This document shows positions 18,001-24,000 of a stretch of 64,000 nucleotides of DNA, piece by piece (position 1 is the stretch's first letter; every line of letters begins with the position of its first letter). Source of the DNA: Escherichia coli (GTDB lineage Bacteria; Pseudomonadota; Gammaproteobacteria; Enterobacterales; Enterobacteriaceae); assembly GCF_001677475.2 (NCBI RefSeq), contig NZ_CP015229.1. One strand, 5' to 3'. A program made the position numbers.

Positions 18001-21000
18001 CTGTTCATGTGGATACGGATATCACCGAAGTGGCGAAAAATAATGCGCTTACTGATGATGATTTTTCTGCGGGAAAGTCTTCGACGGCGAGCTGAATTTT
18101 GCCCTCAGACTGGCGCGTGAGATGGGGAGGCCTGACTGGCGCACCATGCTTGCCGGGATGACATCCACCGAATATGCCGACTGGCACCGTTTTTACCGCA
18201 CGCATTATTTTCACGATACCCAGCTGGATATGCATTTTTCCGGGCTGACGTACACCGTACTCAGCCTGTTTTTTTGCGATCCGGATATGCATCCGGCGGA
18301 TTTCAGTCTGCTTGCACCCCGACGTGATGATGAGCAGACGGAGATGCCGGATGAGGACGATATGCTGATGCGGAAAGCGGCAGGACTTTCTGGTGGTGTC
18401 CGCTTTGGGGCTGACGGGAAGGAAATCGTTACGGTCAGTGATGACATGCGGAGCAGTACAGAGGATGAAGCCATGCTGATGATGGTGTCTGAGGGAATTC
18501 CAGGAGGTGTACGCTATGGCGGGTAATTTTGCCGATCTGACAGCTGTTCTTACACTGGATTCAACCCGTTTTTCTGAAGAGGCTGCACGGGTAAAGAAAG
18601 AACTGGGTGAAACCAGTGACCTTGCGGATTTGATGGCCGGGCGTGTCAGCCAGTCTTTTAAGAAACAGGCCACTGCCGTTGAACAGGGGCTGAGCCGTCA
18701 GGCGCTGGCTGCACAAAAAGCCGGGATTTCCGTCGGGCAGTATAAAGCGGCCATGCGTACCCTGCCTGCACAGTTTACGGATATCGCCACGCAGCTTGCC
18801 GGTGGTCAGAATCCCTGGCTGATCCTGCTGCAACAGGGCGGTCAGGTGAAGGACGCCTTCGGCGGGATGATCCCCATGTTCAGGGGGCTTGCCGGTGCGA
18901 TCACCCTGCCGATGGTCGGGGTCACCTCGCTGGCGGTGGCGACAGGTGCGCTGGCGTATGCCTGGTACCAGGGGGATTCCACGCTTTCAGCGTTTAATAA
19001 AACCCTGGTTCTTTCCGGTAATCAGTCCGGACTGACTGCCGATCGCATGCTGACGCTCTCCAGAGCCGGACAGGCAGCAGGGCTGACGTTTAACCAGGCG
19101 AGTGAGTCACTGGCAGCCCTGGTGAATGCCGGTGTGCGTGGTGGTGAACAGTTTGATGCCATCAACCAGAGTGTGGCGCGTTTTGCTTCTGCATCCGGTG
19201 TGGAAGTGGACAAGGTTGCAGAGGCTTTTGGAAAGCTGACCACCGACCCGACGTCGGGACTGATGGCTATGGCGCGCCAGTTCCGTAACGTGACGGCAGA
19301 GCAGATTGCGTATGTTGCGCAGCTGCAGCGTTCGGGGGATGAGGCAGGGGCCTTACAGGCGGCGAACGATATCGCCACAAAAGGCTTTGATGAGCAGACC
19401 CGTCGCCTGAAAGAAAACATGGGGACGCTGGAAACCTGGGCGGATAAAACCGGGAAGGCATTCAAATTGATGTGGGATGCCATCCTGGATATCGGTCGTC
19501 CTGAATCCTCAGCGGATATGCTCGCCAGTGCGCAGAAGGCATTTGATGAGGCGGATAAAAAATGGCAGTGGTACCAGAGCCGGAGTCAGCGTCGGGGAAA
19601 GACCTCCTCTTTCCGTGCCAACCTTCAGGGTGCATGGGATGACCGTGAAAATGCCCGTCTGGGGCTGGCGGCAGCCACGCTGCAGTCGGATATGGAAAAA
19701 GCCGGTGAACTGGCGGCAAGGGACCGGGCTGAGCGTGAGGCGTCACAGCTGAAGTATACCGGAGAGGCGCAGAAGGCGTATGAGCGCCTGCTGACGCCAC
19801 TGGAGAAATATACTGACCGGCAGGAAGAGCTGAATAAGGCCCTGAAAGACGGGAAAATCCTGCAGGCGGATTACAACACGCTGATGGCGGCGGCGAAAAA
19901 GGATTATGAATCGACGCTGAAAAAACCGAAGTCGTCAGGTGTCAAAGTGTCAGCCGGGGAGCGTCAGGAAGACCGGGCGCATGCAGCCATGCTGGCGCTT
20001 GAAACTGAGCTCAGGACGCTGGAGAAGCATGCCGGTGCGAATGAGAAAATCAGCCAGCAGCGCCGGGATTTGTGGAAGGCGGAGAGTCAGTTCGCGGTAC
20101 TGGAGGAGGCGGCGCAACGTCGCCGGCTGTCTGCACAGGAGAAATCCCTGCTGGCGCATAAAGACGAGACGCTGGAGTACAAACGCCAGCTGGCTGACCT
20201 GGGCGACAAGGTTGAACATCAGAAACGGCTGAATGAGCTGGCACAGCAGGCGGCGCGGTTTGAACAGCAGCAGAGCGCGAAGCAGGCCGCCATCAGCGCA
20301 AAAGCCCGCGGCCTCACCGACCGTCAGGCGCAGCGGGAGTCGGAAGAGCAGCGCCTTCGTGACGTGTACGGTGATAATCCGGATGCGCTGGCGAAGGCCA
20401 CATCTGCACTGAAGAACACCTGGTCTGCGGAGGAGCAGCTTCGTGGAAGCTGGATGGCCGGGCTGAAATCCGGCTGGGGTGAGTGGGCGGAAAGTGCCAT
20501 GGACAGTTTTTCGCAGGTTAAAAGCGCGGCCACGCAGACCGTTGACGGTATTGCACAGAATATGGCGGCGATGCTGACCGGCAGTGAACAGAACTGGCGC
20601 AGCTTCACCCTATGAGACGACAATAACTCAGTCCGCCTGGCGCCGATTATTCTGGCCGGTTTTGTAACCTGAGTGTCATTTACATGATCCAACAGGAAAT
20701 GGCGTGACGCTCAATACTTCTCAGGTCAGTTACTATATGACTCAGCGTAAGAAAGGTATAACTCAGCATATCTCGGCCATGAAGGCTGGTATCTCAGTCC
20801 GTTCTGGTCGTCGGATCGAAAAAGGAGAGTGGGCAAAAAACAGTGTTCGGCACTGGCGCACACGCAAAGATCCTCTGGAAGCTGTGTGGGACAGCATGCT
20901 TGTTCCTCTGTTGAAAGAGAGGCCGGCTCTGACACCAACAACTCTACTGGAGATGCTACAGGATAAATATCCCGGCCAGTACCCCAACAGCCTTCGAAGA

Positions 21001-24000
21001 ACAATGCAACGGCGGGTTCGCGAATGGAAACTACAGTATGGTACAGAGCAGGAGGTCATGTTCCGCCAGCAACATCAGCCCGGCCTGCGAGGCCTGTCGG
21101 ACTTTACTGAACTGAAAGGTGTAGTTGTCACCATCGCCGGTAAGTTGTTGGCGCATAAGTTGTATCACTTCCGTCTGGAATGGAGCCACTGGAGCTGGAT
21201 GCGGGTTGTTCTGGGTGGTGAGAGCTTCTCTGCTCTGGCTGAAGGCCTGCAGGAAGCCCTCGGACAACTGGGCGGAGTGCCGGTAGAACATAAAACGGAC
21301 AGCCTGAGGGCAGCATGGAAACAACAGGGCGAAGATGGACGCCGCGAGCTGACTGAGCGTTATGCTACTCTCTGTCAGCACTACGGAATGCAGGGCGTAC
21401 ACAATAATGCCGGTCGGGGCCACGAAAATGGCTCGGTTGAAAGTGCCCACGGACATCTGAAAAGGCGTATCTGTCAGGCGCTGATACTGCGGGGCAGTAA
21501 CGACTTCAGCACCATAGAAGAATATCAGGCCTTCATCACTCAGCAGGTTATGCGGCACAACCGTAACAATCAGGATCTGGTCAAGGAAGAACGTCTTCAT
21601 CTGAAACCGCTGCCGCTTCGTCGCAGTGCTGACTATGATGAGCTGACTGTGAGGGTTAGTCGCAGCAGTACCATCAATGTGAAGCACGTCGTCTACAGCG
21701 TACCTTCCCGGCTTGTAGGTCAACTGTTACGGGTCAGGTTATGGGACGATCGTCTGAGCTGTTACGTTGGCAGCAGCGAGGTCATGAGCTGCCCTCGCGT
21801 CAGACCAGAAAAAGGGAAGACGCGGGCCCGTCGTATCGACTTCCGACATGTGATCGACAGTCTGGCAAAAAAGCCCGGTGCGTTCTGCCATGCAACGCTG
21901 AGAAATGACATCCTGCCGGACGATGAATGGCGGAGGCTGTGGCGTCGCTTATGTAATCATCTGGAGCCCGATATGGCAGGAAGGCTGATGGTACATGCCC
22001 TGAAACTGGCTGCAGGATACGACGATATCTCAGTCGTGGCAAAAGGTATGGAGCAGATGCTGAATACCCCGGGAAACGTGGATCTGCACCGGCTGATGCG
22101 CTTCCTGGGTATAAAAGAAAAGGCGTTGCCGGTAGTCAATGTGATACAGCATAACCTGAGCAGTTATGAGCAACTACTGCGTGGCAAGGGAGGTTCGCAG
22201 TGAGCAATATCCATCACCTTGAACATAGCCTGCGTAAACTACGCCTGACACGAGTTGGAGCTGAATGGCACGCTCTGGAAAAACGAGCGCTGGCAGAAGG
22301 CTGGACACCATCGCGCTATCTTCTGACGCTATGCAATGAAGAACTCCTGTGGCGCGAGAGTGAAAAACTGCGTCGTTATAAAAAGGAGGCCCGGTTGCCA
22401 GTTGCCAAAACGCTGAGCGAATACGACTTCAGTCAGGTGCCGGAACTGAATGGAGCTCAGTTCCGGCAACTCTGTGAAACGACAGACTGGGTTGATGCAG
22501 GAGAAAACGTTCTGCTGTTCGGAGCCAGCGGGTTGGGGAAAAGCCATCTGGCGGCAGCGATCGTGGATGGCGTAGTAGGTCAGGGCTACCGGGCCCGGTT
22601 CTACAGCGCAGGAGAGCTGTTGCAGGAACTACGTAAAGCCAGAGCTCAGTTGAAACTGAATGAGCTGCTACTGAAACTGGATCGCTACCGGGTGATAGTG
22701 GTGGATGATCTTGGCTATGTCAAACGCGATAGTGCCGAAACGGGTGTGCTGTTCGAGTTAATAGCGCATCGCTATGAACGTGGGAGCCTGGTGATAACCA
22801 GTAACCATCCGTTCAGCATGTGGGGCAGCATCTTCGTGGATGAGACTATGGCGGTGGCTGCGGCAGACAGGCTGATCCATCACGGATATATGTTCGAACT
22901 GAAAGGGGAAAGCTACAGGAAAAAGACAGCGAAGGCAGTAACAAGCGCGACTTGATGTCGCCCTGAAGGGTGCGGCCAGTATAGTTGGCGCGAGTCGGCA
23001 AAACTAGTTGACGTCTAATATCACCCGTTCCGTGCTGTCCATGATGACAGAAATTCTGCTTAAGCAGGCAATGGTGGGGATTGTCGGGAGTATCGGTAGT
23101 GCCATTGGGTTTGCCGGTGGTGGTTTTACAGGTACTGGCGGCAAATACGAGCCTGCGGGGATTGTTCACCGTGGTGAATTTGTCTTCACGAAGGAGGCAA
23201 CCAGCCGGATTGGCGTGGGGAATCTTTACCGGCTGATGCGCGGCTATGCCACCGGCGGTTATGTCGGTACACCGGGCAGCATGGCGGACAGTCGGTCGCA
23301 GGCGTCCGGGAAGTTTGAGCAGAATAACCATGTGGTGATTAATAACGACGGCACGAACGGTCAGATAGGGCCACAGGCGCTGAAGGCTGTTTATGACGTA
23401 GCCCGTAAGGCGGCAATGGATGTCGTGACCGGGCAGATGCGTGATGGTGGTCTGTTCTCCGGAGGTGGGCGATGAAAACCTTCCGCTGGAAAGTGAAACC
23501 GGGTATGGATGTGGCTTCGGCTCCTTCCGTCAGGGAGGTGCGCTTTGGTGATGGTTACTCCCAGCGCGCGCCTGCCGGGCTGAATGCCAACCTGAAAACG
23601 TACAGCGTGACGATTTCTGTCCCCCGTTGGGAGGCCACGGCGCTGGAATCGTTTCTGGCAGAGCACGGAGGCTGGAAAGCCTTTCTGTGGACGCCGCCTT
23701 ATGACTGGCGGCAGATAAAGGTGACCTGCGCAAAATGGACGTCGCGGGTCAGTATGTTGCGTGTTGAGTTCAGCGCAGAGTTTAAACAGGTGGTGAACTG
23801 ATGCAGGATATCCGGCAGGAAACACTGAATGAATGCACCCGTGCGGAGCAGTCGGCCAGCGTGGTGCTCTGGGAAATCGATCTGACAGAGGTCGGTGGTG
23901 AACGTTATTTTTTCTGTAATGAGCAGAACGAAAAAGGTGAGCCGGTCACCTGGCAGGGGCGACAGTATCAGCCGTATCCCATTCAGGGGAGTGGTTTTGA

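What the first reader, a model, noticed from the sequence alone, without database searches (positions are those of the whole stretch)
20605..23026. IS21-family element splits tape-measure gene H
A 2.41-kb element with istA/istB and ~34-bp imperfect terminal inverted repeats lies inside H. Removing it and one TCACCC copy restores a continuous 850-aa tape-measure ORF, so the insertion is recent and precise and the prophage cannot make tails. Together with the ant, nanS-p and poly-G lesions this marks a domesticated prophage that keeps regulatory cargo.
Basis: seen in the sequence. Interest (0 to 1): 0.4.

Follow-up and report, generated by a model that had tools for sequence, protein, structure and literature searches.

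The report
ISEc10 splits prophage tape-measure gene
A well-known E. coli jumping gene (ISEc10, IS21 family) has recently landed in the tail-length gene of a lambda-like prophage, which is an ordinary way for prophages to be disabled.

Summary
A 2410-bp element (20611-23020) with overlapping istA/istB genes lies between two copies of TCACCC, inside a lambda-type tape-measure gene (H).

It is ISEc10, a catalogued IS21-family insertion sequence. It is 98.5-99.9% identical to full-length copies in other E. coli, and matches to it occur in 898 of 5426 complete genomes.

E. coli 08-00022 carries the same prophage at the same potC/potB site with an intact 847-aa H. The in-silico-excised junction matches it 1000/1000, with TCACCC present once. 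Apart from the IS, there are no substitutions across 12.9 kb around the site, and no other complete genome has this insertion. The insertion is therefore precise and recent.

H is cut after residue 698, inside its conserved C-terminal domain, so loss of tail assembly is a sound inference.

The "domesticated prophage" reading is not supported. The data show ordinary decay:
- J already lacks its C-terminal ~200 aa in the IS-free sister prophage.
- The structural module was shared very recently between hosts whose chromosomes differ by 1.4-3%.

I found no target preference for tape-measure genes, no tandem junctions and no hybrid promoter. This is a known element at a new insertion site, and the interest is low.

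The parts
18516..20615 (+). 5' fragment of tape-measure gene H: 698 H codons, then one Leu codon and a TGA stop supplied by the left tip of the IS (TCACCC|TATGA)
   Evidence: 100% identical to residues 1-698 of the intact 847-aa H of E. coli 08-00022. Matches TIGR01541 tape_meas_lam_C positions 2-200 of 332. ORF 18507-20615 is listed.
20605..20610 (.). Left copy of the 6-bp target-site duplication TCACCC
   Evidence: Present once in the empty site of 08-00022 (L001 20495-20500).
20611..23020 (+). ISEc10 (IS21 family), complete 2410-bp copy in the same orientation as H
   Evidence: Full-length matches (query 1-2410) at 98.5-99.9% identity to copies that PGAP names 'IS21-like element ISEc10 family'. 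Tips are identical in 14 other copies.
20611..20660 (+). Left terminal inverted repeat (48 nt, 20611-20658), built from two 22-nt sites: L1 20616-20637 and L2 20639-20660, spaced 23 nt apart
   Evidence: 34/48 complementary to the right end; the lag-23 self-match of 13/22 is the maximum over lags 15-34. This matches the L1/L2 organisation described for IS21 ends (PMC10122671).
20704..22203 (+). istA, a 499-aa DDE transposase, full length; putative catalytic residues D133, D199, E246 with K at E+7
   Evidence: NF033546 IS21 family transposase, 226 bits (cut-off 160), covering residues 12-304. Pfam Mu-transpos_C_2 at 311-366. Same coordinates as the PGAP istA in 8 other copies. Differs by 2-4 aa from those copies.
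22200..22955 (+). istB, a 251-aa AAA+ helper ATPase, full length; Walker A GASGLGKS at residue 108, Walker B VIVVDD at residue 165
   Evidence: NF038214, 267 bits (cut-off 200). PF01695, 209 bits. Matches IS5376 IstB structures 8q3w and 5bq5 at E=4e-45.
22971..23020 (-). Right terminal inverted repeat (48 nt, 22973-23020) with two 22-nt sites: R1 22994-23015 and R2 22971-22992. It contains TTGACG (23008-23013), 7 nt from the tip.
23021..23026 (.). Right copy of the target-site duplication TCACCC
23027..23475 (+). 3' fragment of H (residues 699-847 plus stop); it has no start signal of its own apart from a TTG inside the IS right end (ORF 23008-23475)
   Evidence: Matches TIGR01541 positions 253-332 of 332. 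500/500 nt identical to the sister H downstream of the junction. ORF listed.

Best explanation
A complete and apparently functional copy of ISEc10, a catalogued IS21-family element, transposed recently into codon 699 of the tape-measure gene H. The host is a lambda-like prophage integrated between potC and potB.

**Mechanism (by analogy with IS21/IS5376, not tested here).** An IstA tetramer binds the two paired sites at each end (L1/L2, R1/R2) and synapses them. ATP-bound IstB decamers bend the target DNA and recruit IstA. Staggered strand transfer followed by repair leaves the 6-bp TCACCC duplication.

**Consequence (shown in the sequence).** H now ends after residue 698 plus one Leu, at a TGA supplied by the IS tip. 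The last 149 residues are separated by 2.4 kb.

**Consequence (inferred).** The truncated tape measure cannot support tail assembly, so the prophage cannot form infectious particles by itself. It is a neutral or mildly beneficial knock-out in a prophage that was already decaying.
For: **Family assignment.** Both proteins score above the curated NCBIfam cut-offs. Structural homologues confirm IstB.

**Identity with ISEc10.** The copy is 98.5-99.9% identical to full-length ISEc10 copies, with the same tips.

**Target-site duplication.** Eight of 14 other copies with both flanks also have a 6-bp duplication; the rest have 5 or 7 bp.

**Empty site.** 08-00022 matches the excised junction 1000/1000, with TCACCC present once.

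**Recency.**
- There are no substitutions in 8618 bp upstream and 4251 bp downstream of the IS.
- All morphogenesis proteins from DUF1441 to I are 99.6-100% identical to the sister's, nearly all of them 100%.
- The insertion is absent from 5426 complete genomes.

**Mobility of ISEc10.** New insertions next to lpp were recovered in CFT073 under drug selection (PMC7482066).

**End architecture.** The two-site ends fit published IS21 biochemistry (PMC10122671; PMC11208146).

**Position of the break.** It lies inside the conserved lambda tape-measure C-terminal domain.
Against: - Nothing contradicts the identification.
- No experiment here shows that tails are not made.
- J is already C-terminally truncated in the IS-free sister. 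The IS may therefore have changed nothing about infectivity.
- IstA found no solved-structure relative by sequence, so I placed the catalytic residues by motif inspection only.
- The element's tips read 5'-TA...TA-3', not the terminal CA described for IS5376.
- Reads were not available, so I cannot exclude a misassembly or a subpopulation variant.
Confidence: 0.93

Rival explanations
1. Domestication. The IS insertion is one step in a selected conversion of the prophage into a fixed host module that keeps its regulatory cargo (AraC-type regulator, iraM-like gene, TerB) and has lost virion production.
For: - The prophage carries regulator-type genes: an AraC-family HTH protein at 2082-2792, a TerB protein and an iraM-like gene.
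- It has several lesions besides the IS: the G9 frameshift, ant-like fragments, a partial DUF1737 gene and a truncated J.
Against: - No test of selection was possible or passed.
- Every other head and tail gene is intact and 99.6-100% identical to the sister's.
- The structural block differs by only 7 substitutions between hosts whose chromosomal flanks differ by 1.4-3%. It is therefore a recent arrival or exchange, not a long-resident domesticated module.
- The insertion is in a single genome, so it is not fixed in any lineage sampled.
Confidence: 0.05
2. Targeted insertion. ISEc10 has a preference for lambdoid tape-measure genes, or for late operons in the co-oriented direction, so the hit in H is not random.
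For: - Two further independent ISEc10 insertions lie in tape-measure genes of other prophages, both co-oriented with H: OkiPb01695 (L002) and strain 510016 (L013).
- In L013 an IS100 (also IS21 family) sits about 90 bp further on.
- Other copies sit in a prophage lysozyme gene and at the 3' end of a tail-protein gene on a plasmid that carries phage tail genes.
Against: - The three H sites are at non-homologous positions and have unrelated target sequences.
- The 14 duplicated targets share no consensus beyond a weak tendency to end in C.
- None of 60 records sampled evenly across 951 lists a tape-measure gene under the match.
- Only one of 5426 genomes has an ISEc10 left end near this H segment.
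- H genes are long, present in several copies per genome and dispensable, so a few surviving hits are expected.
Confidence: 0.04
3. Assembly artefact. The IS was placed in H by misassembly of a repeated element, and the real H is intact.
For: ISEc10 is multi-copy in many strains, up to 14 places per genome, and repeats are a classic cause of misjoins. No reads were available.
Against: - A perfect 6-bp target duplication of the length typical for ISEc10 flanks the element.
- Both junctions sit at the exact tips shared by all other copies.
- A misjoin would not create a duplication of the target.
Confidence: 0.01

Closest known systems
ISEc10 (IS21 family; E. coli, e.g. the copies in CFT073)
   Same: - Same length (2410 bp).
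- Identical tips (TATGAGACGACA...TGACGTCTAATA).
- Same istA and istB coordinates.
- 98.5% nucleotide identity to CFT073 copies and 99.9% to copies in OkiPb01695.
- 5-7 bp target duplications.
   Different: - Three nucleotide differences from the nearest copy.
- 2-4 substitutions in IstA and one in IstB.
- The insertion site itself is not seen in any of 5426 complete genomes.
IS21 / IS5376, the biochemical and structural models of the family
   Same: - istA followed by an overlapping istB.
- IstB is 157 bits (E=4e-45) to IS5376 IstB structures.
- Each end carries two repeated sites, as in L1/L2 and R1/R2.
- Short target duplication.
   Different: - IstA (499 aa) has no detectable sequence match to any solved chain.
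- The tips end in TA rather than the terminal CA described for IS5376.
- No tandem or abutted-end junction was found in genomes.
IS insertions in morphogenesis genes of lambdoid prophages of pathogenic E. coli (e.g. IS629 in phage CP-1639; the defective prophage pool of O157 Sakai, PMC2669165)
   Same: An IS interrupts the late (structural) region of a long-tailed lambdoid prophage. The structural module here is about 93% identical to those of CP-1639, phage 1720a-02 and Stx2a phages. CP-1639 carries IS629 inside the matched region.
   Different: The IS family differs (IS21 rather than IS3), and so do the gene and position. I did not read the O157 paper beyond its title and abstract, so the parallel rests partly on my own knowledge.
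Lambda gpH tape-measure protein
   Same: - Match to the lambda-type C-terminal domain model TIGR01541.
- Gene order G, T, H, M, L, K, I, J.
- Similar length (847 aa; lambda gpH is 853 aa, from my own knowledge).
   Different: It is interrupted after residue 698. Direct sequence identity to lambda gpH was not measured here.

Membership tests
IS21 family | A long first ORF (istA) encoding a DDE transposase that is recognised by the family model | tested here: met
   NF033546, 226.4 bits against a cut-off of 160, covering model positions 2-293 of 294.
IS21 family | A second ORF (istB) just downstream encoding an AAA+ helper ATPase | tested here: met
   NF038214, 266.7 bits against a cut-off of 200. 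PF01695, 209 bits. IS5376 IstB structures at E=4e-45. Walker A and B motifs are present. The istA stop and istB start overlap as GTGA.
IS21 family | Catalytic D, D, E triad in IstA | tested here: inconclusive
   D133, D199 and E246 (spacings 66 and 47, K at E+7) were picked by motif inspection. There is no alignment to experimentally defined residues, because no solved IstA was found by sequence.
IS21 family | Terminal inverted repeats built from repeated transposase-binding sites (L1/L2, R1/R2) | tested here: met
   The 48-nt IR is 34/48 complementary and starts at the exact tips. Each end has two 22-nt sites at a 23-nt lag, 13/22 identical, the best lag in the range 15-34. The published organisation is in PMC10122671.
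IS21 family | Short direct target duplication (4-8 bp; range from my own knowledge of the family) | tested here: met
   6 bp here. 5-7 bp in 14 other ISEc10 copies.
IS21 family | Terminal 3'-CA dinucleotide (typical of IS21/IS5376; not a defining feature) | tested here: not met
   The tips read 5'-TATGAG...CTAATA-3'. CA lies 2 nt inside the left end only. The boundaries are fixed by the empty site, so this is a real property of ISEc10 and is shared by all copies examined.
ISEc10 (the named element) | Near-identity over the full length to copies named ISEc10 | tested here: met
   Query 1-2410 aligns at 98.5% to CFT073 and 99.9% to OkiPb01695, all annotated by PGAP as 'IS21-like element ISEc10 family'. 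The ISfinder reference entry itself could not be consulted.
Lambda-type tail tape-measure protein (gpH-like) | Family-model match and position between the G/T chaperones and the M-L-K-I-J tip genes | tested here: met
   TIGR01541 scores 186 bits on the N fragment and 126 bits on the C fragment, against a cut-off of 104.75. Gene order comes from the sister annotation, and the protein matches are 100%.

The most novel reading that the evidence does not exclude
ISEc10 sits co-oriented inside a Q-antiterminated late operon: a Q gene lies at 836-1528, and istA has its own AGGA ribosome-binding site. Prophage induction could therefore drive a burst of istA/istB expression and transposition. The recurrent co-oriented ISEc10 hits in tape-measure genes of three different prophages could reflect such a phage-coupled life style, or a structural target preference of IstB, rather than chance.
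Probability: 0.04. Interest if true: 0.35.

Novelty: already known. Interest (0 to 1): 0.1.

Why it matters
It matters little beyond annotation.

- **Annotation.** The split H fragments should be recorded as one pseudogene interrupted by ISEc10.
- **Strain marker.** The insertion marks this strain or lineage.
- **Dating.** It gives a clean relative date. The IS arrived after a structural module was shared with E. coli 08-00022, and that module has since accumulated no substitutions in 12.9 kb.
- **A caution.** A handful of lesions in a prophage should not be read as domestication.

Tried and rejected
- **Solved structure for IstA.** None was found by sequence, even at E up to 10. The catalytic residues are therefore placed by motif only.
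- **Same insertion elsewhere.** No genome has it. The single record covering at least 80% of the junction query (OkiPb01695) proved to be a different insertion about 368 bp further into another prophage's H, itself cut by an IS66 element.
- **Other ISEc10 copies or fragments in the window.** None.
- **Hybrid outward promoter into the H 3' fragment.** The scan found none. The only promoter-like site lies on the minus strand inside the IS, and the count is no higher than in shuffles.
- **Junction promoter.** If the ends abut with 2-3 bp between them, TTGACG (7 nt from the right tip) and GACAAT (8 nt from the left tip) would sit 17-18 nt apart. No tandem or abutted right-left junction exists in 5426 genomes, so this stays an untested inference.
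- **Target-site consensus or tape-measure preference.** Rejected.
- **Source genome.** It is not in the complete-genome collection. The best match is 08-00022, at 98.8% over J to pepT.
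Full report
**1. What is in the sequence**

Window 20611-23020 is a 2410-bp element flanked by TCACCC at 20605-20610 and 23021-23026. The bases just outside the two copies differ, so the duplication is exactly 6 bp.

The element carries two ORFs on the + strand:
- 20704-22203: GTG start, 499 aa.
- 22200-22955: 251 aa, overlapping the first ORF through GTGA.

The first ORF exceeds NCBIfam's curated cut-off for IS21-family transposase (226 vs 160 bits). The second exceeds the cut-off for the IstB helper ATPase (267 vs 200 bits). Pfam adds IstB_IS21 (209 bits) and a Mu-transposase C-terminal barrel at IstA 311-366. IstB matches the solved IS5376 IstB structures at E=4e-45. 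IstA has no sequence match among solved chains.

By motif inspection, IstA has D133, D199 and E246 with K at E+7. IstB has Walker A and Walker B motifs.

**2. The ends**

The inverted repeat starts exactly at the tips and runs 48 nt at 71% complementarity. It is the only inverted 48-mer pair of that quality in the element.

Each end consists of two 22-nt sites spaced 23 nt apart, with consensus g.CG.CaA.tA.tctggCCG. This matches the L1/L2 and R1/R2 organisation that IstA tetramers bind in IS5376 (PMC10122671).

The tips read 5'-TA...TA-3' rather than ending in CA. The same holds for all other copies examined.

**3. What it is**

The element is ISEc10. Megablast finds it in 898 of 5426 complete E. 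coli genomes. The listed full-length alignments end exactly at query positions 1 and 2410, at 98.5% identity (CFT073) to 99.9% (OkiPb01695). PGAP names these copies 'IS21-like element ISEc10 family', with the same istA and istB coordinates.

The window's copy differs from the nearest copy by 3 nucleotides. Both ORFs are full length.

Fourteen other copies with both flanks have duplications of 6 bp (8 copies), 5 bp (3) or 7 bp (3), with no shared target sequence.

ISEc10 is experimentally mobile. New insertions beside lpp arose in CFT073 under drug selection (PMC7482066).

**4. The gene it hit and the empty site**

The flanking ORFs match the lambda-type tape-measure C-terminal domain. Model positions 2-200 lie on the upstream fragment and 253-332 on the downstream fragment.

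Removing the element and one TCACCC gives an 850-codon ORF. Frame restoration alone is a 1-in-3 event. The decisive evidence is E. coli 08-00022 (NZ_CP013662.1):
- The excised junction matches it 1000/1000, inside an annotated, intact 847-aa tape-measure gene.
- A window-to-locus alignment shows TCACCC once in that genome.
- It is the same prophage at the same site between potC and potB, with G, T, H, M, L, K, I, J in lambda order.

In the window, H ends after residue 698 plus one Leu, at a TGA supplied by the IS tip.

**5. How recent**

Apart from the IS and its duplication, the two prophages show no nucleotide difference from window 11993 to 27277. That is 8618 bp upstream and 4251 bp downstream of the insertion. 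All morphogenesis proteins from DUF1441 to I are 99.6-100% identical, nearly all of them 100%.

No other complete genome has this insertion.

The chromosomal flanks of the two strains differ by 1.4-3%. The structural block (8130-30700, 7 substitutions) was therefore shared between lineages long after the hosts diverged, and the IS arrived later still.

With a rate near 2e-7 to 1e-6 substitutions per site per year (my own knowledge), zero differences in 12.9 kb bounds the age loosely to the order of a hundred to several hundred years. This is an inference.

**6. Consequence**

Loss of the C-terminal 149 residues of a tape measure should abolish tail assembly. This follows from established knowledge of lambda gpH and was not tested here.

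The IS is not the only tail lesion. J aligns only to residues 1-1035 of an intact 1232-aa J in a related prophage at the same site in strain GB089. PGAP marks J as truncated in the IS-free 08-00022 as well.

Relative to the sister, the window's prophage also has a G9 run that gives a +1 frameshift. It also carries a roughly 1-kb segment with fragmented ant-like ORFs between the lysozyme and Rz genes.

This is a decaying prophage. Nothing measured here shows selection to keep its cargo.

**7. Leads followed and dropped**

- **Tape-measure preference.** Two other genomes have independent, co-oriented ISEc10 insertions in tape-measure genes. The sites are not homologous and the targets are unrelated. 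A spread sample of 60 records shows none. I found no evidence for a preference.
- **Junction promoter.** A promoter can be drawn if the ends abut: TTGACG, a 17-18 nt spacer, then GACAAT. No abutted junction occurs in 5426 genomes.
- **Outward promoter.** No promoter reading out of the IS into the H 3' fragment was found.

**8. Verdict**

The core interpretation (IS21-family element, precise, recent, H inactivated) is supported. The domestication claim is not. This is a known element and a known kind of event, and only the insertion site is new.

Noticed in passing
window 26265-29519 (J) and 29529-30688: The tail-tip gene J (1084 aa) aligns only to residues 1-1035 of an intact 1232-aa J in a related prophage at the same potB site (strain GB089). 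The usual lom gene is replaced by two ORFs with no Pfam match (123 and 269 aa). The IS-free sister prophage has the same state and PGAP marks it as a pseudogene, so this lesion predates the IS. Alternatively, it could be an unrecognised alternative receptor-binding module.
   Followed up: partly
window 5645-5653: A run of nine G, where the sister prophage has GGGGGGAT, adds one base. It splits a 213-aa hypothetical gene between the holin and lysozyme genes into two frames.
   Followed up: partly
window 6980-8037: A segment of about 1 kb between the lysozyme and Rz genes is absent from the sister prophage. It holds a string of short ORFs (51, 33, 63 and 69 aa at 7248-7816), beginning MNMMTVPFHGNSLYVV, that look like a fragmented antirepressor (ant) gene. 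I ran no family search on them.
   Followed up: no
window 8130-30700 versus 33501-64000: The prophage structural block differs from E. coli 08-00022 by 7 substitutions in about 20 kb. The adjacent chromosome (potB to minC) differs by 1.4-3%, and the prophage early/lysis region (1-8100) is mosaic. This indicates recent exchange of the structural module between divergent hosts.
   Followed up: partly
window 814-3089: This region differs from the sister prophage. Here it holds a Q antiterminator (836-1528, PF06323) and an AraC-family regulator (2082-2792). The sister has a DUF1133 protein and an HTH protein only 37% identical.
   Followed up: partly
window 4100-4432 (-) and 46560-46880 (-): The prophage carries an iraM-like anti-adapter gene, 100% identical to the sister's. 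It is 62% identical at protein level to the chromosomal iraM further along the window, so the window holds two paralogues.
   Followed up: no
window 58349-61858 and 54485-57132: An intact 1169-aa AIDA/pertactin-type autotransporter lies where strain 08-00022 has only a short frameshifted remnant. The neighbouring ycgH-like autotransporter is split into two ORFs (211 and 676 aa), as in the sister genome.
   Followed up: partly
L002 6768-7603; L013 3007-5416; L006, L007, L010: ISEc10 has independently hit tape-measure genes in two other prophages. One copy is later cut by an IS66 element; the other has an IS100 about 90 bp downstream. ISEc10 is also found nested inside other IS21-family elements: within ISEc12 in L007 with a 7-bp duplication, and next to another istB in L006/L010 with no duplication.
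   Followed up: partly
window 20611-20612 and 23019-23020: The ISEc10 tips are TA at both ends rather than the terminal CA described for IS5376. All 14 other copies examined share these tips.
   Followed up: partly
window 4694-5008: A DUF1737 (nanS-p-type N-terminal) gene fragment is 100% identical to the one PGAP marks as 'missing C-terminus' in the sister prophage.
   Followed up: no
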